From: Bacteroidota bacterium
GTDB lineage: Bacteria; Bacteroidota; Ignavibacteria; UBA10030
DNA: 64,000 bases
Direction: 5' to 3'
Assembly (NCBI GenBank): GCA_049523215.1
Contig: JBEKNC010000003.1
Span: 263,394 to 327,393 of the forward strand
The translations under genes and the position numbers were made by a program. This document shows, piece by piece, positions 263 through 52,386 of this stretch (the first letter of the stretch is position 1; each line of letters begins with the position of its first letter). The notes under the pieces are model-generated. The model did no database searches. It was not told the origin of the DNA and saw only the letters and a list, made by a program, of their open reading frames with translations.

Positions 263-401
263 TATTTTGAACCTCTCCCTAACCCTCTCCTACAAGGAGA
301 GGGTATATTCGCGCTTGGTTTTCCGATAGTCTATTTCTTTTTATCATCTATTACTCTCCTCCCCTGTAGGGGAGGAAAAAGGTGGGGTTGTCAATCTAAC
401 T

Positions 402-606: not shown

Positions 607-715
607 ACCCCCCTTTGCTCCCCCCTTCAACGAAGGGGAGCGTATCACAACAATACGCGTAAGCGTATCACTAATAAAACGCAGACCACCTTTTAGCAGG
701 GGGGTTCAGCTTTTT

Positions 716-975
716 TCCTTCCACAATCTTCATCTCCAATTGTCATCCCCATATGCTTCTCATGGGGATCCAGGACAAGGTTTTTATCTTTTCTCTCATT
801 TGACGTTATCACTGTTTCTGTTTGGAAAAACATTTATCCTCGACAAACGCTCGCGGCTGTAATGATTTTTGCTTCTGTAGGGACACAACACGTTGTGTCC
901 TGTTTTTGGGCGCATCGTGATGCGCCCCTACGAGGATTTTCCTTTACCCCTCCGCCGCCGCCTTCTTCATCTCTG
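716..975. repeat. Composite repeat copy 2: module A (716-839) plus module B (840-975)
   Basis: Module B: tcgacaaacgctcgcggctgYaatgatttttgcttctgtagggacacaacacgttgtgtcctgtttttgggcgcatcgtgatgcgcccctacgaggattttcctttaccc.tccgccgcc..cttcttcatctctg. It contains two perfect hairpins (ggacacaac..gttgtgtcc and gggcgcatc..gatgcgccc). It is about 95 percent identical to 1631-1766. Confidence 0.8.
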
Positions 976-1378
976 CAAGTTTCGTGGCAAGATCTGCAGG
1001 CAATGCAACGAGAAGCGTTTTAATGTGTTTTGGGAAACGCCCATTATTTTTTTCTTTCTTAATAAGCTCCATCATTGATTTGTCTGTAAATGCAAACACA
1101 ATTTCCTGCGGTTTTTCACTGAGGGAACCTGCCCAAAAAGCATTCGAGCGGACTTTGGCAAGCTCATCTGCTCCAGGTTTATCGCCTGCCGTCTTACTTG
1201 AGCTCGTTGAGATAAAACAGACAATCTTTCCGTCTTCAGAGACAGCATCGCATTCAAATTCGCCGCCGGATTGCACCCCTAATTTCTGTTTTGAGAAGAC
1301 TTGATGATATTTCTTGGGAAGGAATTCGGTTCTTATCCAATTTTCAACATCTTTTGTTGCTAGCGTTGAGTCTGCCAT
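944..1378 (-). CDS. Hypothetical protein, 144 aa, sandwiched between repeat copies; the C-terminal 11 residues are encoded by repeat module B
   Basis: ORF with a plausible start. No motif could be assigned confidently. The segment GGEFECDAVSEDGKIVCFISTSS weakly resembles a PD-(D/E)xK-like strand pair. The 3' end (944-975) lies inside repeat module B. Confidence 0.35.
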   Translation of the reverse strand: MADSTLATKDVENWIRTEFLPKKYHQVFSKQKLGVQSGGEFECDAVSEDGKIVCFISTSSSKTAGDKPGADELAKVRSNAFWAGSLSEKPQEIVFAFTDKSMMELIKKEKNNGRFPKHIKTLLVALPADLATKLAEMKKAAAEG

Positions 1379-1396
1379 TGAATATTCCTTAGCGCT

Positions 1397-1766
1397 ACCT
1401 GTAGCTGATGTCGTTGGTTACATTATTTTTTACAGATCGCTTTATCGAACCCCCCAGCCTTCGGCTTCCCCCCTTTAAGAAAGGGGGGAGCAAGGGGGGT
1501 TAGGTCTTCCCCTCCACAATCTTTATCTCCAATTGTCATCCCCATATGCTTCTAATGGGGATCCAGGGTAAGGTTCTTACCTCTTGCATTTTATTGTTAT
1601 CTCCGTTTCTGTTCGGAAAAACATTTATCCTCGACAAACGCTCGCGGCTGCAATGATTTTTGCTTCTGTAGGGACACAACACGTTGTGTCCTGTTTTTGG
1701 GCGCATCGTGATGCGCCCCTACGAGGATTTTCCTTTACCCTTCCGCCGCCTTCTTCTTCATCTCTG
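1397..1766. repeat. Composite repeat copy 3: module C (1397-1476), a G-rich hairpin spacer, module A (1507-1630) and module B (1631-1766)
   Basis: Direct sequence match to the copies at 402-606 and 716-975. The spacer cccccctttaagaaagggggg is a perfect hairpin. Confidence 0.8.
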
Positions 1767-1921
1767 TTGTTATCGTTATACCCGCGGTTTTTGTAGAGAC
1801 GTCCCCACGATGTTTTCCCTTTTAACCTGCCGTTTGGCCGCTTCTCCATTTCATTCTTCATCCAGAAAAACCAAAGACCGCGCGCTGAAACACGTGCCCT
1901 TTCTCGGATGAGGTGCAATAT

Positions 1922-2755
1922 CTATTTTGTTGTGGATGAATCAGGGACGGCGTTTTTCACCGTTTCATTTCCTAATGTGCCTTGGCCCAATGTGAACATC
2001 TCGTAGTATGCATTCATCAACTTTGCCATCATCATGGTACCCGCTGAATTAACAAGTGCATCGTGATCCTCCGATGCGGCAAATACGAACAGCAACGTCA
2101 CTTTTCCCTTGAACGATTCCGGCAGTGCTATGTCGGAGCCTTCGAATGTTTTGACGCTGAACGAGGGAAGTGGTTTCCCAAGGTACGCATAAAAATCCTG
2201 CCCCTTGCCGAGCGTGAACAACGCCTTGGGTTTGGCATCCGCTTTTTCTTTTGCCAGGGTCGTTTGGAACGGACTTGTTTCGTCAACGGAGATCGCTTCC
2301 TTGCCATCAAGGTTCAACAGAAGTTCTTCCACTAACCGGTTGAAACGGCGCGGATCAAACATGGTCGATTGGCAATGTGCGCGAATGATTCCTTTCCGGT
2401 CGATGGCCAGTACAGTAAAATTGTTCGAATTAAGTTCCAGCACCGAATCGACGGCGGCAGAAAACGCCCTGCCCGAAGCGCTCTTTCCGCCAAACGATAT
2501 ACCGAACGCGCTTTGCGATTTCAGCTTCTTGTACGTCGAGTCGGCGAGTGTCGGGAACAGGAATGTCACATTCATTTTGTCCTTGAAGATCCCGCCGACA
2601 ACATGTTTGGCTGTGGTGAGGTCTTCTGCCATTCCGATTCCTACGATGTTGAGCTTCGGCAGAGGATTGTTGCTATATCGTTCAACAAGCTGGGCGGTCG
2701 CGATGGAACCACCTGTGATCAGGGCGATGAGCGTGATAACGATGATGCGTTGCAT
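1922..2755 (-). CDS. Secreted hypothetical protein with a degenerate (Cys-less) thioredoxin-like/redoxin-like region
   Basis: N-terminal signal peptide MQRIIVITLIALITGGSIATAQ. The segment GKVTLLFVFAASEDHD resembles the redoxin P-loop region, but the CxxC is replaced. The overlapping plus-strand ORF 2205-2885 is judged spurious. Confidence 0.4.
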   Translation of the reverse strand: MQRIIVITLIALITGGSIATAQLVERYSNNPLPKLNIVGIGMAEDLTTAKHVVGGIFKDKMNVTFLFPTLADSTYKKLKSQSAFGISFGGKSASGRAFSAAVDSVLELNSNNFTVLAIDRKGIIRAHCQSTMFDPRRFNRLVEELLLNLDGKEAISVDETSPFQTTLAKEKADAKPKALFTLGKGQDFYAYLGKPLPSFSVKTFEGSDIALPESFKGKVTLLFVFAASEDHDALVNSAGTMMMAKLMNAYYEMFTLGQGTLGNETVKNAVPDSSTTK

Positions 2756-3238
2756 GATAAGCTCCTTTCAACTGGGAACGGCGGCAGCGGATTGGGCTCC
2801 CCCCTTCAAACGATCCCGCCGTAATGCGTGGCCGACGTTACATCTATTGGTTAAAACTGTTCAATTACAGTTACAACAAAAGTAAACCTGAAATTCGTTA
2901 TATGCAAGAAAGACAGCAATTCGTTCCGTATCCAATTTTCAACATCTTTTGTTGCAATAGTCGAATCTGCCATTTTGTAATCGTTTCCCCAGAAATACTT
3001 CTTCCAACGTCTTTGCAGCCGTTAACTTTTTATAAGTAGATCTTCTCGCTCCCAAGCTCTGCTGGGGAGCGTTATTTAAGGAAGCTCTGCTTCCATAAAT
3101 CTTTACCGTTTTGTCTGTACATTAACCAATCAACGGTCTACCTTCAGGTTCTTCCATTATTTAAAGCAGAGCTTCGCCACCTTCCGTTCCCAAACGGAGT
3201 TTGGGAACGAGGGGAAAGCGGGATGGATCGGTACAAAT

Positions 3239-4147
3239 CTATTTTGTACTTTTCACTACACTCATCGCGGTAGCGATCATCGACGAAATATCGCCAAAGT
3301 TCGCCGGAAGAATTAACGTCGTACCCTGCTTTGCAAGATTACCGAATTGTTCCACCAATTTTTCAGCAACGCGTAATTGCACGGCTTCCATTCCGCCTTC
3401 CGACTTAGCTGCCGCTGCAACTGCTTTTACACCGTCTGCGGTTGCATTTGCGACCGCACGGATTGCTTCAGCTTGACCGCTTGCTTCGTTAATTTGTTTC
3501 TGTCGGACCGCTTCAGATTCAAGAACGACCTTCTGTTTCTGCCCTTCGGCAACGTTGATCGCGGACTGTTTTTCTCCTTCTGACTGCAAAATGATCGCCC
3601 GTTTTTCGCGTTCCGCCTGCATCTGTTTTTCCATCGCAATGAGTACAGTCTTCGGAGGGACGATGTTCTTAATTTCGTACCTCAGGATCTTTACGCCCCA
3701 TGTGCGTGATGCCTCATTGATTGCGCTTACGATCGCTGAATTGATCATTGTCCGTTCTTCAAACGTTTTATCCAGGTCGATCTTTCCAACTTCACTGCGC
3801 ATCGTGGTCTGCGACAGCTGCACGATGGAAAACATGTAATTGCTAATGCCATACGACGCCATCTGCGGATCAAACACCTGCACGAAAATCACACCGTCAA
3901 CCCCGACTTGAACGTTGTCCCTGGTGATACAGACCTGCTCAGGAATATCGATCGTCTGTTCTTTCAACGTATGTCTATAGGCGATTTTATCGATGAATGG
4001 AATAATGTAGCTCACTCCCGCATGCAGAGCGATGTGAAATTTACCAAGCCGCTCAACAACATATGCGCTTTGCTGTGGAACAACACGAACGCCGGTCATA
4101 ATTATGATGGCTGCAAGTACGGCGAGGACAATAAAAAATATTTCCAT
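3239..4147 (-). CDS. SPFH/band-7 (stomatin/QmcA-like) membrane protein
   Basis: N-terminal TM helix followed by a typical SPFH core (VVPQQSAYVVERLGKF...) and a C-terminal coiled-coil region rich in A/E/K/Q. Confidence 0.85.
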   Translation of the reverse strand: MEIFFIVLAVLAAIIIMTGVRVVPQQSAYVVERLGKFHIALHAGVSYIIPFIDKIAYRHTLKEQTIDIPEQVCITRDNVQVGVDGVIFVQVFDPQMASYGISNYMFSIVQLSQTTMRSEVGKIDLDKTFEERTMINSAIVSAINEASRTWGVKILRYEIKNIVPPKTVLIAMEKQMQAEREKRAIILQSEGEKQSAINVAEGQKQKVVLESEAVRQKQINEASGQAEAIRAVANATADGVKAVAAAAKSEGGMEAVQLRVAEKLVEQFGNLAKQGTTLILPANFGDISSMIATAMSVVKSTK

Positions 4148-4615: not shown

Positions 4616-4788
4616 GCTGTTAGTTCCTTTCCCTGTTTAGAATGCTTCCGTGTAGAACGTTATCGACGTAAAAAATACGACATTTTAATATCCAACTTGA
4701 CTGAATATAGACTAGTTTTTTAGGAATGGCAAATAGAGGTGGTTGGAATACTCATCGGTACACTCTGGCTTTCTCTAGTCACCATCTA

Positions 4789-4930
4789 CTCCTCCACAAT
4801 CTTTATCTCCAATTGTCATCCCCGTATGCTTCTAACGGGGATCCAGGATAAGGTTCTTATCTCTTGCATTTTAATGTTGACACTGTTTCTGTTCGGGAGA
4901 ACATTTACCGCATACATCTGTAGCCGATTT
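4789..4930. repeat. Composite repeat copy 4: module A plus truncated module C, immediately 3' of the EVE-domain gene
   Basis: ctcctccacaatctttatctccaattgtcatccccgtatgcttctaacggggatccaggataaggttctt...catctgtagccgat matches modules A and C. Confidence 0.8.
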
Positions 4931-4953: not shown

Positions 4954-6063
4954 TCACATCGTCTCCGCCTCTTCGGTGTACTCATCTAGAACTGTGTCTT
5001 TCATGTATTCCAGATGACCTTGCTTGTGTAATTCGATTAACGAATCATAAGAAAGGAAAGTGCATGATTCTACAAGTGGACCCTTTTCCAGCAAGCTGAA
5101 AACAGGTCTGGTAATTTCTTGAAATACTTTTTCTCTTCTTTCTGCTGGTGCTACAATGTGAGCTTTAATGTCAAGGTTAGGTTGTAAGGCAAGTAGATCC
5201 GCCATTCTGAGTATTCCAGAATATATCGATGTCGTATGTTCGACTTCAAAAGCTCTCACGATTGAAGTACGTCGTATCCAAAGCACGTCGATCTGTTCAA
5301 TCGTGCGTAAAGTTGTGTCATCATAATTCATAGGGAGCGACTCTAGCAATGACCCCCCTTGCGGTTTCCATATGTCTAAGACTCGAGACCTATCACTGCG
5401 TGGAACCCATATCTTCATCCCCATTTTTTCGCCAATCTCTGCGAGTAAGGCCTGAATTTGAATGGACTGACGATGTTCTGCAATATCCAGTTTTTGTTCT
5501 TCTATCTCCTCTTCTGGAATTGAAACTGATATTTGCTTATTTAGTGGCGTGCGAATACTATGACCCTGGATCTTCTTTATATCCTCTTCAGAAAGTTCAT
5601 AATTAATGCTATTATGGGTCTGTTCTTTCAATACTCTTTCAAGAAACTCTCCATCATCGTTGTCTAGCTTAAACAGGCTACCTCTCACTCTATTGGTCCA
5701 ACTCTTGTCGTGTTTTGAAAGAGATTTTGTAAAAGAAAGTGTATTCCATACAAGGTCCTCATGGATAGGTACCGCCTTATTTAAATCAAGCCACACATCT
5801 GTTTGAACTTTGAATCTTACTGTGAATGGATCATCTTCAGGAATAAATATTGGTGTATTATCATTAAAACATTTGCTGGTTACTTCAAGAATTCCAACCC
5901 ATCTAGATATTTTTGTTACATAACAGAGAAATTTATCTCCTGGTTTTATCTTATCAGCGGTATTGCGCTGCCTCGGACGGAATCCAGAAATGTCTCTATT
6001 GGATTTGCCAAATGTCTGATATGTCTCTGGTGAAAAAAGATCAATGTAATATGCCATCAACAA
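4954..6063 (-). CDS. EVE (PUA-like) domain protein with a C-terminal uncharacterised, possibly nuclease, domain; candidate modified-DNA reader/restriction component
   Basis: The N-terminal roughly 130 aa (AYYIDLFSPETYQTF...IKPGDKFLCYVTKISRWVGILEVTS) fit the EVE/PUA-like pattern: aromatic residues, GD, Y.....W.G...V. The C-terminal roughly 160 aa (QIDVLWIRRTSIVRAFEVEHTT...) show D/E strand motifs reminiscent of a restriction-endonuclease-like fold. The gene lies directly downstream of the Type IIG gene on the same strand, with a 33-bp gap. Confidence 0.55.
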   Translation of the reverse strand: MLMAYYIDLFSPETYQTFGKSNRDISGFRPRQRNTADKIKPGDKFLCYVTKISRWVGILEVTSKCFNDNTPIFIPEDDPFTVRFKVQTDVWLDLNKAVPIHEDLVWNTLSFTKSLSKHDKSWTNRVRGSLFKLDNDDGEFLERVLKEQTHNSINYELSEEDIKKIQGHSIRTPLNKQISVSIPEEEIEEQKLDIAEHRQSIQIQALLAEIGEKMGMKIWVPRSDRSRVLDIWKPQGGSLLESLPMNYDDTTLRTIEQIDVLWIRRTSIVRAFEVEHTTSIYSGILRMADLLALQPNLDIKAHIVAPAERREKVFQEITRPVFSLLEKGPLVESCTFLSYDSLIELHKQGHLEYMKDTVLDEYTEEAETM

Positions 6064-6096: not shown

Positions 6097-9000
6097 TTAA
6101 GAATTCTTATTTTCTACTTTCCCCTCCACAATCTTTATCTCTTCCTCCGTCAACTCGTACAATTTATACACGATATCATCTATCTTTTTATCTGTGGCGG
6201 CGATTTGACGCTCGACGGGCTCTTTCTCACTGTCAAAATGGGATTTCTGCAATTGCTTGTTGAGTTCCAACATTTTCTCCACGAGCGACACGAGGTCATC
6301 GTGCATTTTCTTTTCGATGGGATTATTAAAATCGATGGCGCGGATAGGAAGTCTTTTAGCATTTTGAATTAATATTTTCTGAAAAACTTCTTTTGATTGA
6401 TCCAAATACTTATGCTTATGGTAAAAATTTATCAATTTGGAATTCAGAATTCCAAGAATATATTTAAGGCTACATTCAGCATCGTTTTTTAACAAAAGAT
6501 TGAAGGCTATTTGAGCATTATATAGCTCCTCCTCGGTGTAGCCGGCATAAATTCTGAGAGGCGAGCCACTTACAATTTGTCTCACTAATATTCGTGGTTC
6601 AGAAAAAAACCTCTGCTCTCTTGGTGCACCTAACCAATCACCGTAACTAATCCATTCTTTCCTACCCCAATCAACTAAGTAACGACTTATATCTTCACCG
6701 GAAAGAATTTTCTTAAAGGTTTTGTCCTTCTTTTTTGTTGAATGAAAGACTCTCTTTTCAATTTGTGCTTGTGTATGTCCTTTGTATTTGTCATATGGCG
6801 TCAAGCCAAGAGAAAAACCACAAACCGCTTCAAGATCGCGACCTATTTTTGACATTTTGTCTATTAAATGCAAAGCATCTGCATTAGAGAAAATATTGAA
6901 AGTACTATAGTCCTCGTTGCTCCAACTCTTTTGATTTATAAAACTATGTTTAAGTGCCTTATCGAAATCTATATGTCCGAGTCTTTCTGTCCGGTCAAAA
7001 ATAATTATTTCACATTTATCGTCATTTAGTACTTTTCTAATGGCAATCGTCAAAACAATAGTTTCCGCAACGACATTCTCAAAAACGCCATCGGGCAACC
7101 TTACAATTTGTTCAACCGCTGCATCTGTTAAGATTTTCTTCCTAAGTTTTGAATATGTGCTTTGAGTTAATATTGAATTAGGTATAATATAACCGAACCT
7201 GCCCTTGTTTTTTATTATACTAAGTGCTCTCTCAATAAATACCGCATACACATTCATCCTGTTTTCGGTTGTTTTGTACTTTTTAAAATAGTAATCAACC
7301 AAAGAAGGATCCAACCCTTTAATATCGATCCATGGCGGATTCCCAATTACCACATCGAAGCCGCCAGTCTTCATAATCTCAGAAAACTCTATTTCCCAGT
7401 CGAATGGGTTTACTTTGTGCCTCGCTTCTTCATCGAACATTTCTCCCTGTGAAGTAAAATCCGTGCCGATAAGTGAATTGCCGCATTTAATATTCTTCGC
7501 GAGCGACGGCAGGTACACTTCTTTTAATGCAAGCGTCATTTGCGGGTTCAGCGTTTCGGCATTTTCTCCTTCAAGCACTTTGAGATACAGCGACATCTGC
7601 GTTACTTCCACCGCCTGCCGATCAATATCCACACCGTAAATATTGTTTACTAAAATATCCCGCTTCTTGCGCGGGGAGAGATGGTAATTGCCGTCTGCGT
7701 CTTTGTAAGAATCAGGGACATTGTTTTCTGTTTTAATATCTTCAGGGTGCGCGGTGTACCATTCAATGTGGTAATCGATCAGTGTCTGGAATGCGCCGAG
7801 CAGGAACGATCCGCTTCCGCAAGCGATGTCGATGATCTTTAATTTTGAAACTTGTTTTGGTGAGAGCCTAAGTCGTTTGATTTCTGTAGCCGACGTCGCT
7901 GACGTCGGTTCTTCCTTTTTCCCGCGATCATCGATCGCGGCTACAATTTTTTCCTCATACAACAATTTACCCAGCGTATTATCCACAATATACTTGACGA
8001 TGTACTGCGGCGTGTAATACACTCCGCCTGCCTTCCGCACTTCCGGCTTTTCTTTTATTATTACATTTTTTGGCGCAAGATGAATTGTCTTGCCGAGGAA
8101 TTTTTCATAAATGCTGCCGAGTATCTCCACGCCGATCTCATTGAAGTGATATGGCGAGAACGGATAATTCAAGTTCTCTAAAATCTTAATCAACACTTCA
8201 TCGCCAACTTCCAACTCTTCGCATTGATGCTGACTAAAGAGCAGCCCATTATACAATGCGCGCCGCTGTTTGAATAAATCATTCAACAGCGAATACAACG
8301 ACAGACCGCGGCGTTCTTTCCACATCCGCAAGATGGCAAGCAGTGTATTTTCAACTTCTATTTCCCTGTCTTCGCACACGCGAATGAAGACGATGCGGTC
8401 AAGAATGCGCTGGACCGCTTCGTTGAGCGTATAATCATTCAGGAACCGACGGTTCTTCGGATGTTTTGCAATATCTCGCGCCAACTCTTCGCGCCATTTA
8501 GATAAATCTTCCAAAAATTCACGGTCGAGTGCAAAGTCGCCGGTGCGCTTCAACATCATCTTTTTTGTCAGCGCTTCCAGGGAACCACCTGCGACAGCAT
8601 CGCGCGAGAATGTATCGAAGAGACGTTCGAATTGATCTAAGTAATGCTTATACGTCAGATCGAAATCTTTGATGATGCCTAATTTCGGTTTCTCAAACGC
8701 AGGTCGCTGGGTGCAATCGAATGTGCGGAATTCTTCAAAGTCTGTAAGTATCGCAAGCGGCACGCGCCCGGAAAATCCGTACCGTTTTACCTGAAAGATC
8801 GCCGATTGGCTTTTTACAAGATCGACGTAGGGCTTTTTTGCTTCAACAAAGAATTTTGTTTGCCCGCCAATGCGAAATCGGTAATCCGGTTTTTTAACTG
8901 CCTCTTTAGAATTGGCTTTGTATTCATCCTCGGCAATATAATCCAGAATGGAAGCGTACTCTTTATACTCTTTGCCAAGAGTTTCTTTTTTCGGAAAGAG

Positions 9001-9252
9001 CGGTTCTTGTTCCTTTACTTCTCTGGCAGTACTGCTCTTCATTCTCGATTCCGGTACGACCTCTTGACGGAATAGCGGTTGCATCAAACGATTATGCACA
9101 TCCCAACCAAGTGCTTCAAAAAACGGATCGATGAGCTGCTGGCGCGCCTGAGTCTCGTTAAACGATGATGATTTGAATTGATAGATGTTCTGATCAAAGA
9201 AATTGACAAGTTTTTCTATATTTTTTCGCGCTGATATTCTATCATTAGCCAT
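6097..9252 (-). CDS. Type IIG/IIL restriction-modification enzyme (MmeI-like): N-terminal PD-ExK nuclease, N6-adenine gamma-class methyltransferase and C-terminal target-recognition domain
   Basis: N-terminal ETQARQQLIDPFFEALGWDV, PDYRF...FFVEAKK (PD..ExK) and LAILTDFEEFRTFD align with the MmeI N-terminal nuclease. MTase motif I IIDIACGSGSFLLGAF and motif IV VVIGNPPWIDIKG are present. The length is 1051 aa. A low-complexity insertion (IVAAIDDRGKKEEPTSATSATEIKR) is encoded by a repeat element. Confidence 0.8.
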   Translation of the reverse strand: MANDRISARKNIEKLVNFFDQNIYQFKSSSFNETQARQQLIDPFFEALGWDVHNRLMQPLFRQEVVPESRMKSSTAREVKEQEPLFPKKETLGKEYKEYASILDYIAEDEYKANSKEAVKKPDYRFRIGGQTKFFVEAKKPYVDLVKSQSAIFQVKRYGFSGRVPLAILTDFEEFRTFDCTQRPAFEKPKLGIIKDFDLTYKHYLDQFERLFDTFSRDAVAGGSLEALTKKMMLKRTGDFALDREFLEDLSKWREELARDIAKHPKNRRFLNDYTLNEAVQRILDRIVFIRVCEDREIEVENTLLAILRMWKERRGLSLYSLLNDLFKQRRALYNGLLFSQHQCEELEVGDEVLIKILENLNYPFSPYHFNEIGVEILGSIYEKFLGKTIHLAPKNVIIKEKPEVRKAGGVYYTPQYIVKYIVDNTLGKLLYEEKIVAAIDDRGKKEEPTSATSATEIKRLRLSPKQVSKLKIIDIACGSGSFLLGAFQTLIDYHIEWYTAHPEDIKTENNVPDSYKDADGNYHLSPRKKRDILVNNIYGVDIDRQAVEVTQMSLYLKVLEGENAETLNPQMTLALKEVYLPSLAKNIKCGNSLIGTDFTSQGEMFDEEARHKVNPFDWEIEFSEIMKTGGFDVVIGNPPWIDIKGLDPSLVDYYFKKYKTTENRMNVYAVFIERALSIIKNKGRFGYIIPNSILTQSTYSKLRKKILTDAAVEQIVRLPDGVFENVVAETIVLTIAIRKVLNDDKCEIIIFDRTERLGHIDFDKALKHSFINQKSWSNEDYSTFNIFSNADALHLIDKMSKIGRDLEAVCGFSLGLTPYDKYKGHTQAQIEKRVFHSTKKKDKTFKKILSGEDISRYLVDWGRKEWISYGDWLGAPREQRFFSEPRILVRQIVSGSPLRIYAGYTEEELYNAQIAFNLLLKNDAECSLKYILGILNSKLINFYHKHKYLDQSKEVFQKILIQNAKRLPIRAIDFNNPIEKKMHDDLVSLVEKMLELNKQLQKSHFDSEKEPVERQIAATDKKIDDIVYKLYELTEEEIKIVEGKVENKNS
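6121..6142. repeat. Fragment of repeat module A (cccctccacaatctttatctc) overlapping the last codons of the Type IIG gene
   Basis: 22-nt identity to the 5' end of module A. It encodes ...EIKIVEG of the MTase C-terminus. Confidence 0.5.
7884..7946. repeat. 63-bp double-hairpin element (GACGTC-type hairpin plus ccgcgatcatcgatcgcgg hairpin) inserted in frame inside the Type IIG coding region; second copy at 52326-52386
   Basis: tagccgacgtcgctgacgtcggttcttcctttttcccgcgatcatcgatcgcggctacaa compared with the 52326 copy gctgacgtcattgacgtcggcattttcttccccgcgaccatcggtcgcggctacaa. Both have the same two-hairpin architecture and the shared tail cgcggctacaa. Confidence 0.75.
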
Positions 9253-9421: not shown

Positions 9422-10675
9422 CTACACCCACAATGCTTGGATCGGAACGGCATAAAGATTCTTCTCAAACGGAATGACTTCATTTCCATCATATAATACG
9501 ATGCCGCGCAGAAACTTCTTTTTCATTTCAGCTTCCAGCATCTTCATCGTTTTAAATGACGATGCGTCGACCTTTTGCCCGCTTTTGACTTCAATACAAA
9601 CTATACTGCCATCACGGCGTTCAAGCAGAAAATCAATTTCCTGTCCGGTATGTGTCCGAAAATGATGTATCTGCGTCTGTGTTTTACACCATGAGATCAG
9701 TTTCAGCAATTCATTGAGAACAAATGACTCAACGGCTTTTCCCATAATCTCTCCGTCAGACCGAAGCCGCTGGTCATCTGCACCGAGAAGATACAGCATC
9801 AATCCGGTATCTGTCAGGTACAGCTTCGGTGTCTTAATCAGACGTTTGCTCAGATTCTTAGACCACGGCGTTACCAATCGCACAAGGAACGTTGTTTCAA
9901 GCAGGGTCATGTATCTTTTTAAGGTCGTCTGCGGAATAGTACTGCTATTGGACAACTCTGCAAAATTCAACAAAGAACCTGAACGGCTGGCAAGAAGGGC
10001 AAGCAGCCGAGGAAGCGCCGTTAATCCTTCGATGTGCATGAGATCCCGTATATCACGCTGCAAGATGGTTGTTACATACGAACTGAACCAGGAATTCCTG
10101 CGAGCCGGATCATTGCGCTGCAATGCTTCAAAATATCCGCCTTTTATCATCCGATCACTCAATAGATGACGCGTGATATTTTTGACGGAGTATTTGGGCA
10201 TTTTCTCTGCAAAGATATCCTCTACAAATGATCCCTTTGTTTCTTCGAGTTCACTTTGTGAAAATGGGTACAGGGAAAGTATCTCCATTCGCCCTGCAAG
10301 CGACTCAGAAAGTTTCGGTATGAGAAGGACATTTGCCGAACCCGTTAAAAGAAATTGGCCTGCCCTCTTTTTTTTATCTACGGAGGCTTTCAATGCAAGA
10401 AATATTTCCGGCGCCCTTTGGACTTCATCGATAATGAGCGGCTCTTGATAACCGGCTAAAAATCCTTCCGGATTATTATGCACAGCGGAGAGAACCACCG
10501 CATCGTCCAATGTGACATATCGAGCAGTATGCCCATGCGATGATAGCCACTCCACCAATGTGCTTTTTCCTACCTGCCGGGCTCCATTGAGCAAGACAAC
10601 AGGGCTATCCTTGAGAGCATCAAGTACATTCGGTGTAATAGTACGCTGTCCAATATTTAGCTGATAATCATCCAT
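9422..10675 (-). CDS. AAA+ ATPase of the DUF4143-containing (COG1373-like) family
   Basis: Walker A LLNGARQVGKST and Walker B LIIDEVQ. The C-terminal region has the conserved pattern of the DUF4143 archaeal-type ATPases (...HHFRTHTGQEIDFLLER...CIEVKSG). Confidence 0.8.
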   Translation of the reverse strand: MDDYQLNIGQRTITPNVLDALKDSPVVLLNGARQVGKSTLVEWLSSHGHTARYVTLDDAVVLSAVHNNPEGFLAGYQEPLIIDEVQRAPEIFLALKASVDKKKRAGQFLLTGSANVLLIPKLSESLAGRMEILSLYPFSQSELEETKGSFVEDIFAEKMPKYSVKNITRHLLSDRMIKGGYFEALQRNDPARRNSWFSSYVTTILQRDIRDLMHIEGLTALPRLLALLASRSGSLLNFAELSNSSTIPQTTLKRYMTLLETTFLVRLVTPWSKNLSKRLIKTPKLYLTDTGLMLYLLGADDQRLRSDGEIMGKAVESFVLNELLKLISWCKTQTQIHHFRTHTGQEIDFLLERRDGSIVCIEVKSGQKVDASSFKTMKMLEAEMKKKFLRGIVLYDGNEVIPFEKNLYAVPIQALWV

Positions 10676-10854
10676 AATGTGGACGATTTTACATTCACGC
10701 CGGTTTATACAGATTATGGAGCAACTTGAAATAGCGGAAGGCCCTATTTTAACTTATTCTACCAACTTAAAATAAGCATTTTCTTATTTATCCCGGGCAC
10801 GACAGTGTCGTGCCCCTACAAAAGAACCTCCGGAGGTTGATGGGAACACAATTT

Positions 10855-11075
10855 ATCTTTCTCTCTTTCTTTTACACTCGCCAGCGAAATCGATAGAAGA
10901 TGTTCATCAAATTAATTGTATCCGCGACTCCACCACCCCTTCGAAATAATGTCTGCGTATTTTGGAACACGCAAAGCGTGATGCTTTCCTACGCTCCTCC
11001 TCAAATGAGGAGGGGACAAGCGTAGTGCAAGGGTGGTGGTTTTATGCTTCAAAGAAAGTGGCGATAAGTTTATAT
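10855..11075. repeat. Intergenic repeat modules X (10855-10905), a GC-rich long hairpin (10929-11039) and Y (11046-11073) upstream of the S46 peptidase gene; X and Y recur downstream at 13548-13615 and 13804-13832
   Basis: X: ttctctctttcttttacactcgccagcgaaatcgatagaag compared with 13561 ttcttctctttttcttttcctaagcctgcgaaatcgacggaag. Y: tcaaagaaagtggcgataagtttat compared with 13806 tcaaagaaagtggcgataaatttat. Hairpin: ccaccacccc...ctcctcctcaaatgaggagggg...gggtggtgg. Confidence 0.7.
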
Positions 11076-11248
11076 TATTTGAAATAAATCAAGATTCCCG
11101 CCTGCCCTCCTTCCGCCCAAAAAACTGGCGGACAAGACGGTGGGTAAGCAGGCAGAAAACGCAGAAATGGATGGGTCTCTTTTTTCAAAAAAGTTTCGTT
11201 ATATTATCCCGTCTTCAATAACTCTAATTTCATTTTTGGAGGATTCCT

Positions 11249-13342
11249 ATGAAAACCAAGACCCGTTGGATTAAGTATATTCTGACGTTTGGTGTTGTTC
11301 TTTTTGTATTTCATAGTACAATTTTTTCAGCACCCGATGAAGGAATGTGGACATTTGATAATCCACCGTTGAAGCTGCTCAACGATCGTTATAACTTCAT
11401 CCCAACACAGGAATGGCTTGACCATGTGCGGCTTTCGAGTGTCCGTTTTAACAATGGAGGATCGGGATCATTCGTTAGTCCTACTGGATTGGTACTAACG
11501 AACCACCATGTTGCCCTTGATCAATTACAGAAAGTATCAACATCCCAGAAAGATTATGTCCAAGATGGCTTCTATGCCGCCACACCTGCTGAAGAGATGA
11601 AGTGCCCCGATCTTGAACTTAACGTCCTGATGTCGCTTGAAAATGTTACCGACAGGGTTTTCAGTGTAATAAAAAAGGGAATGAGCGATCAGGAAATCTA
11701 TGCCGCACGAAAAGCTGAAATAGCAAAGATCGAAAAAGAAAGCCTCGAAAAAACAACGCTTCGGTCTGATGTCGTGCCGCTCTATGATGGAGGTGAATAC
11801 TGGCTGTATCGGTACAAGAAGTATACTGAGGTCCGTCTTGTATTTGCCCCTGAAGTGCAGATTGCATTCTACGGCGGTGATCCGGATAATTTCACTTTCC
11901 CGCGTTACGATCTCGACATGGCAATTTTCAGGGTATATGAAGACGGCAAACCTGTCGTGAGCACTCAGTACCTGAAGTGGAACTCAAAAGGCGCCGCCGA
12001 TGGTGATTTGGTATTTGTATCTGGAAATCCGGGCTACACAGCTCGTTTGAACACAATGGCTGAAATTGAAAAAGATCGCGATTATACGTACCCGCTGATA
12101 CTCAAAATATTAAAGCGCCGCCTTGAGGTATTGAAACGCTATGCGGCACTTGGACCTGAGCAGGCAAGGCAGGCGAGCAACATGATTTTCTACTATGAGA
12201 ATTCGGTCAAGGCTCTTACGGGAGAGTATAACGGTCTCCTGGATAAAAATCTTATAGCAAAAAAACAAAAAGAGGAAACTGATTTTCAAACACGCGTCAA
12301 CAGCAAGCCTGAATGGAAATCGGAATTCGGCGGCGTGTGGAACACGATCGCAGAGATCCAGAAAAAGCATAGCGAAAACATGACTAAGATCCGGTACCGT
12401 GCGATTCGCGGTTCACAATTTGCCCAGCTTGCACTGGATATCGTTCGATATGTGACGGAAATACAGAAACCGGATGGAAAACGTCTTGAGGGATTTCACG
12501 ATTCGCAACTCGAATCACTCCGATACGATCTTCTCTCACCTGCACCAATTTATCTGCAGCTTGAAGAAACTATGTTTGCTGATGCGTTGCGGGAATCATT
12601 GGAACAACTGGGTCCCGACGACCCCTTCGTAAAAACAATTCTTGGAACCCGAACACCCGAAGAGGCTGCAAAAGATCTTTTCACCGGTACGAAACTCGCC
12701 GATCCGAAGGTCCGGAAAGCGCTTATTGAGGGCGGAGAAAAAGTCGTCGATGAATCAACCGATCCTTTAATTGCAATGGCACAGAAGGTTGATCCGATTC
12801 TGCGTGAACTTCGAAAATGGATCGAGGACCATCTTGATAGTCAGATGAAAATTGCAGGGGAAAAACTCGGGAAAGCCCGCTTTGCAATCTATGGAAAATC
12901 TGTCAACCCTGATGCTACCTTCACGCTTCGGCTTTCGTACGGCGCTGTCAAAGGATATCCGATGAACGGCACGATAGCACCGTCAAAAACGACATTCTAC
13001 GGATTATATGATCGTGCATCGAGTTTCGATATGAAACAGCCGTTCAATCTTCCCGCACGATATCTTGAGCGGAAAGAGAAGCTCGATCTCTCGACCCCGC
13101 TGAATTTTGTCTGCTCATGCGATATCATCGGCGGCAACTCCGGATCTCCGGTTATCAACAGAGATGGCGAGCTTGTCGGATTGATTTTCGATGGAAATAT
13201 TGAGAGCCTTGTCGGCAATTTTATTTACAGCGATGAGACAAACCGTGCCGTTGCAGTCCATTCGGCTGCAATGATCGAAGCTTTACGGAAACTCTACGAT
13301 GCCGGAAAGCTTGCAGACGAACTGGAGGGAAAATCGAAGTAG
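11249..13342 (+). CDS. S46 family dipeptidyl-peptidase (DPP7/DPP11-like serine peptidase), secreted
   Basis: Signal peptide, then the motif DEGMWTFDNPP typical of the S46 N-terminus. The catalytic Ser motif GGNSGSPV lies near the C-terminus and the His region is TNHHV. The length is 697 aa. A good RBS (ggagg) sits before the ATG. Confidence 0.85.
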   Translation: MKTKTRWIKYILTFGVVLFVFHSTIFSAPDEGMWTFDNPPLKLLNDRYNFIPTQEWLDHVRLSSVRFNNGGSGSFVSPTGLVLTNHHVALDQLQKVSTSQKDYVQDGFYAATPAEEMKCPDLELNVLMSLENVTDRVFSVIKKGMSDQEIYAARKAEIAKIEKESLEKTTLRSDVVPLYDGGEYWLYRYKKYTEVRLVFAPEVQIAFYGGDPDNFTFPRYDLDMAIFRVYEDGKPVVSTQYLKWNSKGAADGDLVFVSGNPGYTARLNTMAEIEKDRDYTYPLILKILKRRLEVLKRYAALGPEQARQASNMIFYYENSVKALTGEYNGLLDKNLIAKKQKEETDFQTRVNSKPEWKSEFGGVWNTIAEIQKKHSENMTKIRYRAIRGSQFAQLALDIVRYVTEIQKPDGKRLEGFHDSQLESLRYDLLSPAPIYLQLEETMFADALRESLEQLGPDDPFVKTILGTRTPEEAAKDLFTGTKLADPKVRKALIEGGEKVVDESTDPLIAMAQKVDPILRELRKWIEDHLDSQMKIAGEKLGKARFAIYGKSVNPDATFTLRLSYGAVKGYPMNGTIAPSKTTFYGLYDRASSFDMKQPFNLPARYLERKEKLDLSTPLNFVCSCDIIGGNSGSPVINRDGELVGLIFDGNIESLVGNFIYSDETNRAVAVHSAAMIEALRKLYDAGKLADELEGKSK

Positions 13343-51386: not shown

Positions 51387-52301
51387 CTACGAGGACTTCC
51401 CTTTCTTCACAAATGTATTGTTCTCGTATTCCCGAAAAGCAATTTCCAATTCTTTTTGTGTATTCATCACCACCGGTCCATACCATGCAATGGGTTCGCC
51501 GATCGGTTTCCCGGATATCAGGAGAAATCTCATGGACTGATCTTCTGTTTGAACAACGATTTGATCGCCGTCATCAAACAAGACAAGCGTGCCATTGGAT
51601 GCGTACGGCTCGCGCTTGATATCAAAATAATTGACTCCATCTGCTTCATAGGAAAACGGCTTCCTCTCCTTGCACAGAAATCCTTGCCCTTCGATCACGT
51701 ATGCGAAGACCGTATATCCCCTCTTCGTCGCGTGTATAAATTCCGAGCTTGACGGCACGGTAATATCGAGATACTCCGGATCGACAATAATATCCTGTAC
51801 AGGTCCCTTTGTCTTTTTGTAAGAGCCGCAGATAAGTTTTATCTTCGTTCCGTTCTCCAGAACCACGTCCGGAATATCCGCCTGTTTAACTTCCTGATAC
51901 CGCGGATCCATCATTTTGTGAGAAGCTGGAAGATTTGCCCAGAGTTGAAACCCGTACATCGCGCTTCCCGTACCGGGCTTCGGCATTTCCTGATGAATAA
52001 TTCCGCTGCCTGCCGTCATCCATTGAACATCACCCGAAGAAATGATCCCGCTGTTGCCCATACTGTCTTTGTGTTCTACGCTTCCCTTGAGCATATACGT
52101 GATCGTTTCAATTCCCCGATGAGGATGCCAGGGAAATCCTTTGATGTAATCATCCGGATGATCGGAACGAAAATCATCTAAAAGAAGGAAAGGATCGAAT
52201 TGAGGCACTTCTTTATTTCCCATCGCCCGTTTGAGACGGACTCCCGCTCCTTCAAGAACAGACTGACTTTTGAAAACTTTTTTTATTTTTCGCGTCTCCA
52301 T
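51387..52301 (-). CDS. Pirin family protein (bicupin)
   Basis: HPHRGIETITYMLKGSVEHKD cupin metal-site motif and a second cupin domain. Confidence 0.9.
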   Translation of the reverse strand: METRKIKKVFKSQSVLEGAGVRLKRAMGNKEVPQFDPFLLLDDFRSDHPDDYIKGFPWHPHRGIETITYMLKGSVEHKDSMGNSGIISSGDVQWMTAGSGIIHQEMPKPGTGSAMYGFQLWANLPASHKMMDPRYQEVKQADIPDVVLENGTKIKLICGSYKKTKGPVQDIIVDPEYLDITVPSSSEFIHATKRGYTVFAYVIEGQGFLCKERKPFSYEADGVNYFDIKREPYASNGTLVLFDDGDQIVVQTEDQSMRFLLISGKPIGEPIAWYGPVVMNTQKELEIAFREYENNTFVKKGKSS

Positions 52302-52325: not shown

Positions 52326-52386
52326 TAGCTGACGTCATTGACGTCGGCATTTTCTTCCCCGCGACCATCGGTCGCGGCTACAAAAT
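52326..52386. repeat. Second copy of the 63-bp double-hairpin element (see 7884-7946), intergenic downstream of pirin
   Basis: gctgacgtcattgacgtcggc and ccgcgaccatcggtcgcgg hairpins plus the shared tail ctacaa. Confidence 0.75.

What the first reader, a model, noticed from the sequence alone, without database searches (positions are those of the whole stretch)
7884..7946. A 63-bp double-hairpin repeat element inserted in frame inside the Type IIG coding sequence
The element at 7884-7946 recurs intergenically at 52326-52386 with the same two-hairpin architecture and the shared tail cgcggctacaa. Inside the RM gene it is translated as IVAAIDDRGKKEEPTSATSATEIKR, just N-terminal to MTase motif I (DIACGSGSF). 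The reading frame is preserved. This is a small palindromic element tolerated as a linker insertion in a restriction enzyme. It could modulate activity, or it marks a recent, still-functional insertion. The left end ctgtagccgacgtcg also resembles repeat module C (ctgtagccgatgtcg), suggesting the repeat families are related.
Basis: seen in the sequence. Interest (0 to 1): 0.65.

Follow-up and report, generated by a model that had tools for sequence, protein, structure and literature searches.

The report
REP hairpin pair inside restriction gene
A 63-base pair of small DNA hairpins from a known class of bacterial selfish repeats (REP elements) sits in frame in a floppy surface loop of an intact restriction-modification enzyme gene; this kind of insertion is already known, but here the same loop carries different hairpin repeats in many related enzymes.

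Summary
Window 7884-7946 holds two 8-bp-stem, 3-nt-loop hairpins. Each carries an outward-facing GTAG tag, which makes the element a head-to-head heterodimer of GTAG-tagged REP units (REPIN/BIME-like). It lies in frame (residues 436-457) in an intact 1051-aa Type IIG RM gene, between methyltransferase motifs X and I. A second copy lies upstream of a pirin gene (52326-52383).

I found 19 distinct copies in the window and in public Bacteroidota, Ignavibacteriae and other metagenome contigs. In two of these assemblies, arrays of this same family flank a REP-associated tyrosine transposase (RAYT) gene.

Of 111 homologues with both anchor motifs, 42 have no extra residues at this site. AlphaFold gives pLDDT below 50 for exactly residues 437-456.

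The insertion is not recent. An 87%-identical orthologue carries it at the same junctions. It has diverged as much as the rest of the gene (54/63 against 86.5%), and no stem is broken.

This loop (S1) and a second loop before motif IV (S2) carry other hairpin-forming inserts in most close orthologues. The same REP dimer also sits in frame in a DrdV-like Type IIL enzyme.

Intragenic REP dimers encoding 20-30 residues are already described, so this is a new member of a known kind. Whether the insert affects the enzyme is untested.

The parts
7884..7946 (-). 63-bp head-to-head heterodimer of two GTAG-tagged REP units, in frame in the RM gene. It covers gene nt 1307-1369 and codons I436 to the first base of E457, encoding (I)VAAIDDRGKKEEPTSATSAT(E).
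7886..7908 (+). REP unit A: gtag + CCGACGTC gct GACGTCGG. The GTAG tag is read on the + strand.
7909..7921 (.). Spacer between the two units. It is purine-rich in the gene sense and encodes GKKEE. Length and sequence vary between copies. On the + strand it forms a T-rich tail after unit A, which makes a terminator-like site antisense to the gene.
7922..7944 (-). REP unit B: gtag + CCGCGATC gat GATCGCGG. The GTAG tag is read on the - strand.
6097..9252 (-). Host gene: an intact 1051-aa Type IIG RM enzyme with HSDR_N nuclease, Eco57I/N6_Mtase/MmeI_Mtase and TaqI_C domains. Motif I is DIACGSGSF and motif IV is NPPW.
7330..7404 (-). Site S2 (FDWEIEFSEIMK|TGGFDVVIGNPPW). It is empty in this gene. 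The 87%-identical orthologue has a 72-nt nested-hairpin insert here, and 22 of the 65 closest homologues have an extended spacing at this site.
52326..52383 (-). Second, intergenic copy of the same REP dimer, about 15-20 nt upstream of the ribosome-binding site (ggaggtg) of a pirin gene (51387..52301, -). Unit B is at 52359-52381 (-). Unit A is at 52328-52348 (+) and has a degenerate tag. The copy is kept at the same position in L013 and L021.
877..931 (.). A different GTAG head-to-head dimer family with the same architecture: gtagGGACACAAcacgTTGTGTCC + spacer + GGGCGCATcgtgATGCGCCCctac. It repeats at 1668-1722.
1668..1722 (.). Second copy of the GGACACAA/GGGCGCAT GTAG dimer.

Best explanation
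The element is a REPIN/BIME-like doublet. Two different GTAG-tagged REP hairpins lie in inverted orientation with their GTAG tags outside; this is an 'HH heterodimer' in the nomenclature of Di Nocera et al. 2013.

The family is spread, or was spread, by a REP-associated tyrosine (HUH/Y1) transposase acting on single-stranded hairpin DNA.

One copy landed in the Type IIG RM gene, in the loop between methyltransferase motif X (GGVYYTP) and motif I (DIACGSGSF). It survived for three reasons:
- (i) In this orientation only one of the three reading frames is open (GTAG read as x-GTA-G gives Val-Ala), and that is the frame used.
- (ii) Its length is a multiple of three.
- (iii) The loop is a disordered surface segment, so 21 extra hydrophilic residues are tolerated.

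The insertion is old. It predates the split from an orthologue with 87% protein identity and has been inherited vertically since.

It is most likely a passenger with little or no effect on enzyme chemistry. Across the enzyme family, the same loop (S1) and a second loop just before motif IV (S2) have repeatedly accumulated hairpin-forming inserts of several different kinds.

Shown: the anatomy, family membership, RAYT linkage in related genomes, insertion status, age and the predicted disorder. Inferred: mobilisation by the RAYT, neutrality for the enzyme, and the reason for the hot spots.
For: Anatomy:
- Both units have 8-bp stems, 3-nt loops and a GTAG tag immediately 5' of each stem on its own strand.
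- TGTAG is invariant in 19 of 19 distinct copies.
- 98% of stem cells are paired. In hairpin 2, one pair covaries (CG in 10 copies, UA in 8), and 0 of 500 shuffles reach the observed covariation score.
- The window has 9 GTAG+hairpin units, against about 1 in shuffles.

Dispersal:
- Copies occur in SPRUCE Bacteroidota, Ignavibacteriae fen_1299 and fen_1287, a MAG labelled Verrucomicrobiota, and JGI metagenome contigs. Most are intergenic and some are in arrays.

Transposase:
- L006 ORF 144..614 matches NCBIfam NF047646 (REP-associated tyrosine transposase) at 123.6 bits, cutoff 80.
- It has the HUH motif (HVH) and the Tyr-x3-Asn motif, aligned by me to E. coli TnpAREP Y115/N119.
- Arrays of exactly this REP family flank it on both sides.
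- A 91%-identical RAYT (P0121) is flanked the same way in L032. It lies on the same 620-kb contig as RM orthologue P0013.

Insertion status:
- The alignment of 65 homologues shows it as an insertion.
- Spacing statistics over 120 homologues agree.

Tolerance:
- pLDDT is below 50 exactly at residues 437-456, with no secondary structure.

Frames:
- Only one frame per orientation is open.
- The independent intragenic copy in L027 uses the same frame, reading VAATVGRGQSKKPTSTTSATA. HMMER aligns 18 of those residues as a clean insertion relative to solved DrdV, PDB 7LO5.

Age:
- The junctions are the same and divergence matches the gene (54/63 against 86.5%) in L001/P0002.

Precedent:
- Intragenic GTAG/CGTC REPs are described; more than half are dimers or groups that encode 20-30 residues (PMC3733652).
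- Rickettsia palindromic elements also insert in frame (PMC10969869).
Against: - No RAYT gene is in the 64-kb window (tblastn). None of the 120 listed RAYT homologues sits on a contig of 328,509 bp, the length of the contig that carries this window's protein P0001. The transposase link therefore rests on related genomes.
- Copy number looks low for a REP family: 2 copies in 64 kb, and only about 22 true hits in two very large collections with a strict pattern.
- No close relative with an empty S1 site is available, so the exact insertion boundaries and the absence of a target duplication are inferred from 19 heterogeneous flanks.
- All nine substitutions between the window and L001 copies spare or compensate the stems. 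My rough binomial estimate gives p about 0.02. That is more conservation than a purely neutral passenger predicts. It hints at selection on the hairpins or at gene conversion from other copies.
- Enzyme activity has not been shown.
Confidence: 0.78

Rival explanations
1. The hairpins are kept inside the gene because they act at the nucleic-acid level. They could be an mRNA structure that pauses ribosomes or sets mRNA decay. They could be a terminator for antisense transcripts, or a protein-binding DNA site. Any of these would tune expression of a potentially toxic RM enzyme.
For: - Stems stay intact after about 14% nucleotide divergence, including one compensated pair and one G-U-compatible change.
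- On the + strand, antisense to the gene, unit A plus the T-rich spacer matches a simple intrinsic-terminator consensus. So does the intergenic copy.
- This is the most stable local structure in the gene.
- The literature proposes RNA-level roles for REPs (PMC3733652).
Against: - The T-rich tail is not a family feature; spacers differ widely among 19 copies.
- There is no U-tract in the sense direction.
- Orthologues carry unrelated hairpins or none at this site, so no specific structure is required by the enzyme family.
- Stem conservation can also come from gene conversion among REP copies, or from only two sequences having been compared.
- There are no expression data.
Confidence: 0.15
2. 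S1 and S2 are true integration targets. Hairpin elements are directed there by local sequence or structure, or by a hairpin already present that seeds further nested insertions. On this view the sites are not simply permissive loops that filter random insertions.
For: - Only S1 and S2 show hairpin-type length variation among 65 homologues. Other low-confidence segments of the protein (71-93, 109-118) do not.
- In all seven genes with DNA, the most stable 60-nt window lies in S1 or S2.
- P0012 has four hairpin modules stacked at S1 and an extended hairpin-2 loop.
- The syntenic orthologues L016 and L017 carry different inserts at both sites.
- A distant homologue (P0113) has a Y1_Tnp domain in frame at S2.
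- Copies with different spacer types share the same S1 junctions.
Against: - Survivorship bias: only intact proteins are in the database.
- BREX PglX has extra residues in the equivalent motif X to motif I stretch in the HMMER alignment, which fits a structurally permissive loop.
- The inserted families are heterogeneous (GTAG-tagged units and several untagged palindromes), so one targeting mechanism is unlikely.
- The same REP dimer sits at an unrelated position in the DrdV-like enzyme.
- No common target motif was found at the junctions.
Confidence: 0.25
3. [quoted passage not shown] It would be derived from, and moved by, a DDE-type insertion sequence, with tgtagccg/cggctaca as its terminal inverted repeats.
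For: The 8-9 bp ends are perfect inverted repeats and the element is short and non-coding in origin.
Against: - There is no consistent target-site duplication in 19 copies.
- The 'terminal repeats' are simply the two GTAG tags plus the first stem bases.
- Single units and partial dimers occur in arrays, which is REP/BIME behaviour.
- The gene flanked by these units is a Y1 RAYT, not a DDE transposase.
Confidence: 0.04
4. The segment is ancestral linker sequence of the enzyme, and the intergenic match is a coincidence or a gene fragment.
For: Three further orthologues carry a similar peptide.
Against: - Most homologues lack it.
- The DNA family occurs in intergenic regions of several genomes, flanks a RAYT, and sits inside an unrelated DrdV-like gene.
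- Chance expectation for the patterns is well below one.
Confidence: 0.01

Closest known systems
GTAG-tagged REPs and REPINs with their RAYT transposase (E. coli REP/BIME with TnpAREP; Pseudomonas fluorescens REPINs; GTAG families of Di Nocera et al. 2013, PMC3733652)
   Same: - Palindromic units with stems in the usual 6-9 bp range and short loops.
- An invariant 5' GTAG tag.
- Two inverted units with the tags outside (an HH dimer, the REPIN layout).
- Heterodimers, loop-length variants, partial units and arrays.
- A RAYT gene flanked by the family in related genomes.
- Sub-families with complementary stem changes.
   Different: - The host is an uncultured Bacteroidota/Ignavibacteria lineage. 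In the 2013 survey, Bacteroidetes and Chlorobi are named for CGTC repeats; I did not see them named for GTAG repeats in the passages I read.
- Copy number looks modest.
- Stems are perfect, without the bulge that E. coli TnpAREP needs.
- No RAYT was found in this window.
Intragenic REP dimers (Opitutus terrae, Thauera, Xanthomonas recB and others; PMC3733652) and Rickettsia palindromic elements (RPEs) inserted in frame (as reviewed in PMC10969869)
   Same: - A palindromic repeat inserted in frame in a functional-looking gene.
- It adds 20-30 residues.
- It is thought to sit in loops or linkers.
- Different REPs at about the same site in orthologous genes have been reported once, for recB of two Xanthomonas species.
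   Different: - RPEs are about 100-150 bp and unrelated in sequence.
- The reported targets are mostly replication and repair genes; that paper does not mention restriction or methylase genes.
- Here two loops of one enzyme family carry inserts in most close orthologues, with several hairpin types. I did not find that described.
Prokaryotic MITEs (Correia, ERIC, Chunjie, Nezha)
   Same: They are short, have inverted ends, form stable stem-loops, and are occasionally intragenic and in frame.
   Different: This element has no target duplication and no related DDE insertion sequence. It is built from GTAG-tagged hairpin units that also occur singly.
Type IIG/IIL RM enzymes (MmeI, DrdV 7LO5) and BREX PglX (8C45, 9EWZ): the host protein's relatives
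   Same: The host has the nuclease, gamma-class N6-adenine methyltransferase and TaqI_C-type specificity domain order. The sequence-closest solved chain, PglX, has extra residues between motif X and motif I in the HMMER alignment.
   Different: The extra 21 residues here come from a mobile repeat, not from a folded subdomain.

Membership tests
GTAG-tagged REP / REPIN | Palindromic unit of about 20-40 bp with a 5-13 bp stem and a short loop | tested here: met
   Both units have 8-bp perfect stems and 3-nt loops. Across 19 copies, 98% of stem cells are paired.
GTAG-tagged REP / REPIN | Conserved GTAG tetranucleotide immediately 5' of the hairpin foot | tested here: met
   gtagCCGACGTC... on the + strand and gtagCCGCGATC... 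on the - strand. TGTAG is invariant in 19 of 19 copies and the opposite CTAC is nearly so. The window's intergenic copy has one degenerate tag (ttag).
GTAG-tagged REP / REPIN | [quoted passage not shown] | tested here: met
   The tags are outside, the bodies face each other, and the spacer is 10-18 nt and variable. Nomenclature was checked in PMC3733652.
GTAG-tagged REP / REPIN | Multicopy and dispersed within one genome (tens to hundreds of copies) | tested here: inconclusive
   There are 2 copies in this 64-kb window and 2 in the 22-kb L001, with arrays in L005/L006, L012, L014, L028 and L032. The source genome beyond the window could not be searched and is not in the GTDB-representative collection.
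GTAG-tagged REP / REPIN | A cognate RAYT gene flanked by units of the same family (REPtron) | tested here: met
   Met for the family, in two related assemblies. The L005/L006 RAYT scores 123.6 bits against NF047646 (cutoff 80). L032 carries P0121, which is 91% identical. Both are flanked on both sides by this REP family.
GTAG-tagged REP / REPIN | RAYT present in the same genome as this copy | tested here: inconclusive
   There is no RAYT in the window (tblastn). None of the 120 listed RAYT homologues is on a 328,509-bp contig. Most RAYT contigs are shorter than 3 kb, so the gene may be on an unbinned fragment.
GTAG-tagged REP / REPIN | GTAG-dependent binding and cleavage by the RAYT; mobility | not testable with these tools
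   This needs biochemistry or comparison of recent insertion polymorphisms.
MITE (DDE-transposase derived) | Target-site duplication flanking the element | tested here: not met
   There is no consistent direct repeat at the junctions of 19 copies. AAAT|...|AAAT in the window copy is not shared by the orthologous copies.
MITE (DDE-transposase derived) | Parent insertion sequence with the same terminal inverted repeats | tested here: not met
   The only gene found flanked by the family is a Y1/HUH RAYT.
Intragenic in-frame palindromic insert (REP-decorated protein / RPE-like) | Absent from orthologues, frame kept, host gene otherwise intact | tested here: met
   The independent case in the DrdV-like gene is a clean 18-residue insertion relative to 7LO5.
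Intragenic in-frame palindromic insert (REP-decorated protein / RPE-like) | Insert lies in a surface loop or linker | tested here: met
   In the AlphaFold model (mean pLDDT 82), residues 437-456 have pLDDT below 50 and no secondary structure, between helix 427-431 and strand 473-476. This is a prediction only.
Type IIG RM enzyme (host gene) | Fused nuclease + gamma-class N6-adenine methyltransferase + specificity domain, with catalytic motifs present | tested here: met
   Pfam finds HSDR_N, Eco57I, N6_Mtase, MmeI_Mtase and TaqI_C. The sequence contains D..EAK, DIACGSGSF and NPPW. Activity was not tested.
Intrinsic terminator | GC-rich hairpin followed by a U-tract in the direction of transcription of the gene | tested here: not met
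   There is none on the sense (-) strand. A consensus match exists only antisense, on the + strand, 7888-7910 plus tail.
Any Rfam RNA family | Match at the gathering score | tested here: not met
   There are no matches in the whole window.

The most novel reading that the evidence does not exclude
The two loops that bracket the catalytic core of this Type IIG family are S1, before motif I, and S2, before motif IV. On this reading they are preferred landing pads for REP/RAYT-type and other hairpin elements, and the resulting turnover of surface peptides or of mRNA hairpins is used by the host. It could vary an exposed surface that phage anti-restriction proteins bind, or set the expression level of a self-toxic enzyme. 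RM genes would then be a favoured niche of these repeats: the same REP dimer is also in frame in a DrdV-like enzyme, and a Y1-transposase domain is in frame at S2 of a distant homologue.
Probability: 0.1. Interest if true: 0.7.

Novelty: new member of a known kind. Interest (0 to 1): 0.45.

Why it matters
REP/REPIN elements are usually treated as extragenic. Intragenic, translated copies are documented but rare and poorly understood.

This case adds a clean example in an uncultured Bacteroidota/Ignavibacteria lineage:
- The transposase is identified in two related assemblies.
- There is a dated, vertically inherited insertion whose hairpins have stayed intact.
- There is a natural series of orthologues with empty, filled and differently filled sites at two loops next to the methyltransferase active-site motifs.

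That series is a ready-made experiment. It can address how much sequence a restriction enzyme loop tolerates, whether hairpin repeats choose their sites or are merely filtered by selection, and whether repeat-encoded peptides or mRNA hairpins affect RM activity.

There is also a practical point. Such inserts inflate apparent diversity in RM enzyme families, and similar hairpin repeats may account for odd low-complexity peptides in metagenomic proteins.

Tried and rejected
- A fixed-spacing pattern for the whole element found nothing because the two window copies differ by an indel. Separate hairpin patterns worked.
- Rfam at gathering thresholds gave no match in the window.
- The genome-collection scan and metagenome scan with a strict gapped pattern returned only 10 and 12 stretches. 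Four of these (L008, L019, L022, L026) are chance matches inside high-GC coding sequence. The source contig itself was not in the GTDB-representative collection.
- RAYT in the window: none (tblastn with the L006 and L016 proteins).
- RAYT on the source contig: none of the 120 listed homologues has contig length 328,509.
- Target-site duplications: none are consistent.
- Sense-strand terminator: none. The sigma-70-type promoter scan is of doubtful relevance to Bacteroidota.
- An empty-S1 allele in a close relative was not available. P0039 had no DNA on file. P0049/L031 is insert-free but only about 53% identical, too far to define the junctions.
- L023, a fourth orthologue with the element, has stops in frame on both sides of the insert region. 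I used it only for the junction sequence.
- I first read the dimer as 'tail-to-tail'. The source paper defines tags-outside as HH, so I corrected it.
- I first suspected that the L006 RAYT lacked its catalytic tyrosine (WQREFFDH). The catalytic Tyr of E. coli TnpAREP is Y115, followed by N119. By my alignment this corresponds to EYVFNNPV, which is present.
Full report
**1. The observation**

Window 7884-7946 (+) reads ctgtagCCGACGTCgctGACGTCGGttcttcctttttcCCGCGATCatcGATCGCGGctacaa. Either strand folds into two perfect 8-bp hairpins with 3-nt loops, closed by a 5-bp outer stem (tgtag/ctaca). The MFE is -28.4 and -29.1 kcal/mol, with z-scores of -5.3 and -5.8, and no shuffle out of 200 folds as well.

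The 1051-codon ORF 6097..9252 on the minus strand reads straight through the element as ...LYEEKIVAAIDDRGKKEEPTSATSATEIKRLRLSPKQVSKLKIIDIACGSGSF.... The element occupies gene nt 1307-1369, which is 63 nt and a multiple of three. It is the most stable 60-nt window of the whole gene: -28.2 kcal/mol, against a mean of -8.9 (sd 3.7) for the rest.

The second copy, at about 52326-52383, has the same two hairpins. One base pair in hairpin 2 is changed on both sides (T-A to C-G). The spacer is 2 nt shorter and one end tag is degenerate. It lies between two minus-strand genes, about 15-20 nt upstream of the ribosome-binding site of a pirin gene.

**2. What the host gene is**

Pfam finds HSDR_N (nuclease), Eco57I / N6_Mtase / MmeI_Mtase, and TaqI_C. 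This is a single-chain Type IIG restriction-modification enzyme, and motif I (DIACGSGSF) and motif IV (NPPW) are intact.

An identical protein is on record from a MAG labelled 'Bacteroidota bacterium', on a contig of 328,509 bp. The neighbours are an EVE-domain protein downstream and an AAA_14/DUF4143 ATPase upstream.

**3. It is an insertion**

In an alignment of the 65 best homologues, the stretch between GKLLYEE and KLKLSPKQV..IIDIACGSG is hypervariable. Across 111 homologues in which both anchors were found, the YYTP-to-ACGSG spacing is:
- the minimal 32 residues in 42 homologues;
- 44 residues in 12;
- anything up to 96 in the rest.

The window protein has 61.

AlphaFold on a 68-sequence alignment gives a good model overall (mean pLDDT 82). 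It gives pLDDT below 50 and no secondary structure for residues 437-456, which are exactly the repeat-encoded residues.

**4. What the element is**

Each hairpin is immediately preceded, on its own strand, by GTAG: gtagCCGACGTC... on the + strand and gtagCCGCGATC... on the - strand. A conserved GTAG 5' of a short palindrome defines the largest REP super-family, and the E. coli REP transposase TnpAREP needs that tag for binding and cleavage (PMC3733652; PMC3479197).

The two units are inverted, with the tags outside. In the nomenclature of Di Nocera et al. this is an HH dimer, and a heterodimer because the stems differ. It is also the REPIN layout.

The window contains 9 GTAG+hairpin units, against about 1 in shuffles. 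These include a second dimer family with the same architecture at 877-931 and 1668-1722.

**5. It is a dispersed family with its own transposase**

One scan of GTDB-representative genomes and one of JGI metagenomes with a strict gapped pattern gave about 22 true copies. They come from a SPRUCE-peat Bacteroidota MAG, two fen Ignavibacteriae MAGs, a MAG labelled Verrucomicrobiota (117-bp tandem units) and several metagenome contigs. Four further hits are chance matches inside high-GC genes.

Nineteen distinct copies align with TGTAG invariant and 98% of stem cells paired. One hairpin-2 pair is split CG:10 / UA:8, and the covariation score is above all 500 shuffles. Spacers vary freely. A long-loop or nested variant of hairpin 2 exists (L004, L010, L013, L032).

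In L005/L006, a 156-aa ORF scores 123.6 bits against NCBIfam NF047646, REP-associated tyrosine transposase (cutoff 80). It has the HUH motif and the Tyr-x3-Asn motif. Full and partial dimers of exactly this family flank it on both sides. A 91%-identical RAYT (P0121) is flanked in the same way in L032. It sits on the same 620-kb contig as an orthologue of the RM gene, P0013.

I found no RAYT in the window. None of the 120 listed homologues lies on a contig of the source contig's length. Most RAYT contigs are very short, which fits assembly breaks at repeats.

**6. Why this copy survives in a gene**

Translating several copies in all six frames shows that only one frame per orientation is open. 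The frame that reads xTAG is closed by the tag itself, and the third frame usually meets TGA in a loop.

The open frame gives VAA(I/T)..RG...PTS.TSAT. The same frame is used by an independent intragenic copy in L027, a 1022-aa enzyme that aligns end to end with solved DrdV (PDB 7LO5, E = 0). There, 18 of the repeat-encoded residues are a clean insertion relative to DrdV.

Survival therefore needs the right frame, a length of 3n, and a tolerant loop. All three hold here.

**7. Age**

The 87%-identical orthologue P0002 (L001) has the element at the same junctions. The two copies differ at 9 of 63 positions (85.7% identity), the same as the gene as a whole (86.5%). Their spacers resemble each other more than either resembles any other copy.

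This is one ancestral insertion that has co-diverged with the gene. It is not a recent event.

None of the nine changes breaks a stem:
- six are unpaired: two in hairpin loops, three in the spacer, and one at the base just outside the outer stem;
- two form a compensated pair;
- one gives a G-U-compatible pair.

My rough binomial estimate for this is p about 0.02. It hints at constraint on the hairpins or at gene conversion from other copies.

P0012 (65% identity) and the fragment L023 share the right junction ggctacag|aaatcaaa but have other spacer types. This points to either conversion or re-insertion. L023 has in-frame stops on both sides of the insert region and may be a pseudogene or a poor assembly.

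**8. The unexpected part: two hot spots**

At the same site (S1), most of the closest orthologues carry other inserts. Examples are PLLVGEGQGEV..., KPSEG...KPSEG, VIARS..TKQS..LPRNDT, HPERS..ESKG, EFISES..MLKQVQHD and FPNASIGNP..LDPRLKHAGMT.

In the six orthologue loci with DNA (L001, L004, L015-L018), the S1 stretch is dominated by predicted hairpins. One of these inserts (L017) matches an intergenic repeat of this very window, 269-303, at 91% over 35 nt.

A second site (S2) lies between FPEI(M/L)K and GGFDVVIGNPPW, just before motif IV. It is empty in the window gene and has an extended spacing in 22 of the 65 closest homologues. The 87% orthologue has a 72-nt nested hairpin there.

In all seven genes examined, the most stable 60-nt window lies in S1 or S2. 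The syntenic orthologues L016 and L017 carry different inserts at both sites. No other part of the protein outside the specificity domain shows this behaviour, not even the other low-confidence segments.

The one insert-free orthologue with DNA (L031) sits in 23 kb with no strong hairpin at all. Insert-bearing loci have 2.2-3.4 per 10 kb; this comparison rests on a single insert-free locus.

Whether the hot spots reflect targeting or only selection for tolerated sites cannot be settled here. I put targeting at about 0.25.

**9. Comparison with what is known**

Intragenic GTAG and CGTC REPs are described. More than half are dimers or groups that encode 20-30 residues. The authors argue that they sit in loops or linkers, and they note one case (recB of two Xanthomonas species) of different REPs at about the same site (PMC3733652). 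Rickettsia palindromic elements are the classic in-frame case (PMC10969869).

That paper does not mention restriction or methylase genes. Two further full-text searches found nothing on REPs in RM genes or in Ignavibacteria.

The finding is therefore a new member of a known kind. The family-wide two-loop hot spot is an extra I did not find described.

**10. Mechanism, with confidence**

- That this is an old, in-frame, RAYT-family REP dimer tolerated in a disordered loop: about 0.78.
- That it also has a nucleic-acid-level role (mRNA structure or antisense terminator): about 0.15. The antisense terminator-like match is not a family feature.
- MITE: about 0.04.
- Ancestral linker: about 0.01.

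Enzyme activity, and any effect of the insert on it, remain untested.

Noticed in passing
L001 13205-13266 (JGI 3300078615 contig; gene 10001-13210): In the 87%-identical orthologue, a second copy of the same REP dimer overlaps the 3' end of the RM gene. Its TTGTAG supplies the stop codon, so the protein ends ...IVEGKL* instead of ...IVEGKVENKNS* as in the window.
   Followed up: partly
window 6113-6142, 395-424, 1501-1530, 4781-4810; also L016 about 13250-13290: The last 30 nt of the RM coding sequence (reverse complement gaggaagagataaagattgtggaggggaaagtaga, 'EEIKIVEGKVE') recur three more times in the window. There they form the start of a 145-nt intergenic repeat (D2/D3: ...ttgtcatccccatatgcttctaatggggatccagg...). 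A similar pseudo-C-terminus sits inside the REP array downstream of the L016 orthologue. An intergenic repeat family seems to carry a copy of the gene's 3' end, or the reverse.
   Followed up: partly
P0113 residues about 560-770 (Bacteroidetes bacterium GWA2_32_17 protein, 42-43% identical homologue): This 1190-aa homologue has a Y1_Tnp (IS200/RAYT-like, PF01797) domain plus a DSTRGHA tandem peptide repeat. Both are in frame at site S2, between ...FPEVFNVKT and GGFDIVLGNPPW. A transposase-like domain therefore sits in the same loop that collects hairpin repeats.
   Followed up: partly
L027 3110-3173 in ORF 637-3705 (JGI Ga0105104_10016839): The same REP dimer is in frame (VAATVGRGQSKKPTSTTSATA) in a DrdV-like Type IIL RM enzyme. 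HMMER aligns 18 of these residues as a clean insertion relative to PDB 7LO5. Two of the three or so intragenic copies found are in RM enzymes.
   Followed up: yes
L016 13127-13590 and 13590-14156 (GCA_026390575.1, Ignavibacteriales): Directly downstream of this RM orthologue lies an array of a different GTAG REP (gtagAGACGT...ACGTCTCTAC). It is followed by a 188-aa RAYT-like gene that scores 64 bits against NF047646, below the cutoff. This is a second REPtron type, next to the same RM gene family.
   Followed up: partly
L012 1-169 and L014 3753-4041 (CAZALU01, MAG labelled Verrucomicrobiota): Here the REP dimer is part of a conserved unit of about 117 bp repeated in tandem (3 copies in L014, 2 in L012). 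The taxonomic label differs from the other hosts, which suggests mis-binning or horizontal spread.
   Followed up: no
window 260-975 and 1399-1766, 4786-4930: These are long composite intergenic arrays of different hairpin modules: cctctccctaaccctctcctacaaggagagggt; cccccttcaacgaaggggag; gtcatccccatatgcttctaatggggatccagg; and the GTAG dimers. Module 269-303 is 91% identical to the in-frame S1 insert of orthologue P0013 (L017).
   Followed up: partly
window 533-570 and 1399-1436: 'Module C' (ctgtagccgatgtcgttggttacattattttttacag) shares the GTAG tag and CCGAYGTCG with REP unit A. It pairs only through G-T/G-U wobble (GUAGCCGA/UUGGUUAC), so the pairing works on the + strand only. It may be a decayed or RNA-level relative.
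   Followed up: no
window 52326-52383; L013 5708-5782; L021 8112-8173: The intergenic copy is kept at the same place in three related genomes: between ...aaaatgattt and ...aacggaggtgtaagATG of the pirin gene. One of them has the long-loop variant of hairpin 2. It may lie in the pirin 5' UTR.
   Followed up: partly
window 4954-6063 (-) and 9422-10675 (-): The RM gene is followed by an EVE-domain protein (369 aa) and preceded by an AAA_14/DUF4143 ATPase (417 aa). EVE domains are, to my knowledge, linked to recognition of modified bases, so this may be a small defence cluster.
   Followed up: no
window 44025-49603: There are many diverged direct repeats with spacings that are multiples of about 123 bp (families D1, D6, D7, D11-D13, D16). 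This looks like one or more large repeat-domain protein genes.
   Followed up: no
window 42699-42870 and 51012-51183; 42239-42363 and 57385-57508: One pair of long direct repeats is 172 nt long and 98% identical, 8.3 kb apart. Another pair is about 125 nt long and 83-92% identical, 15.1 kb apart. They may be insertion-sequence ends or duplicated gene fragments.
   Followed up: no
P0001 versus P0002-P0014 at site S2: The window protein has the ancestral-looking empty S2 (EIMKTGGFD), while most of its closest relatives have an S2 insert (EILGS...). This implies either a precise loss or a recombinant origin of this segment. Nucleotide identity to L001 dips to 78% just before S2 and rises to 94% after it.
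   Followed up: partly
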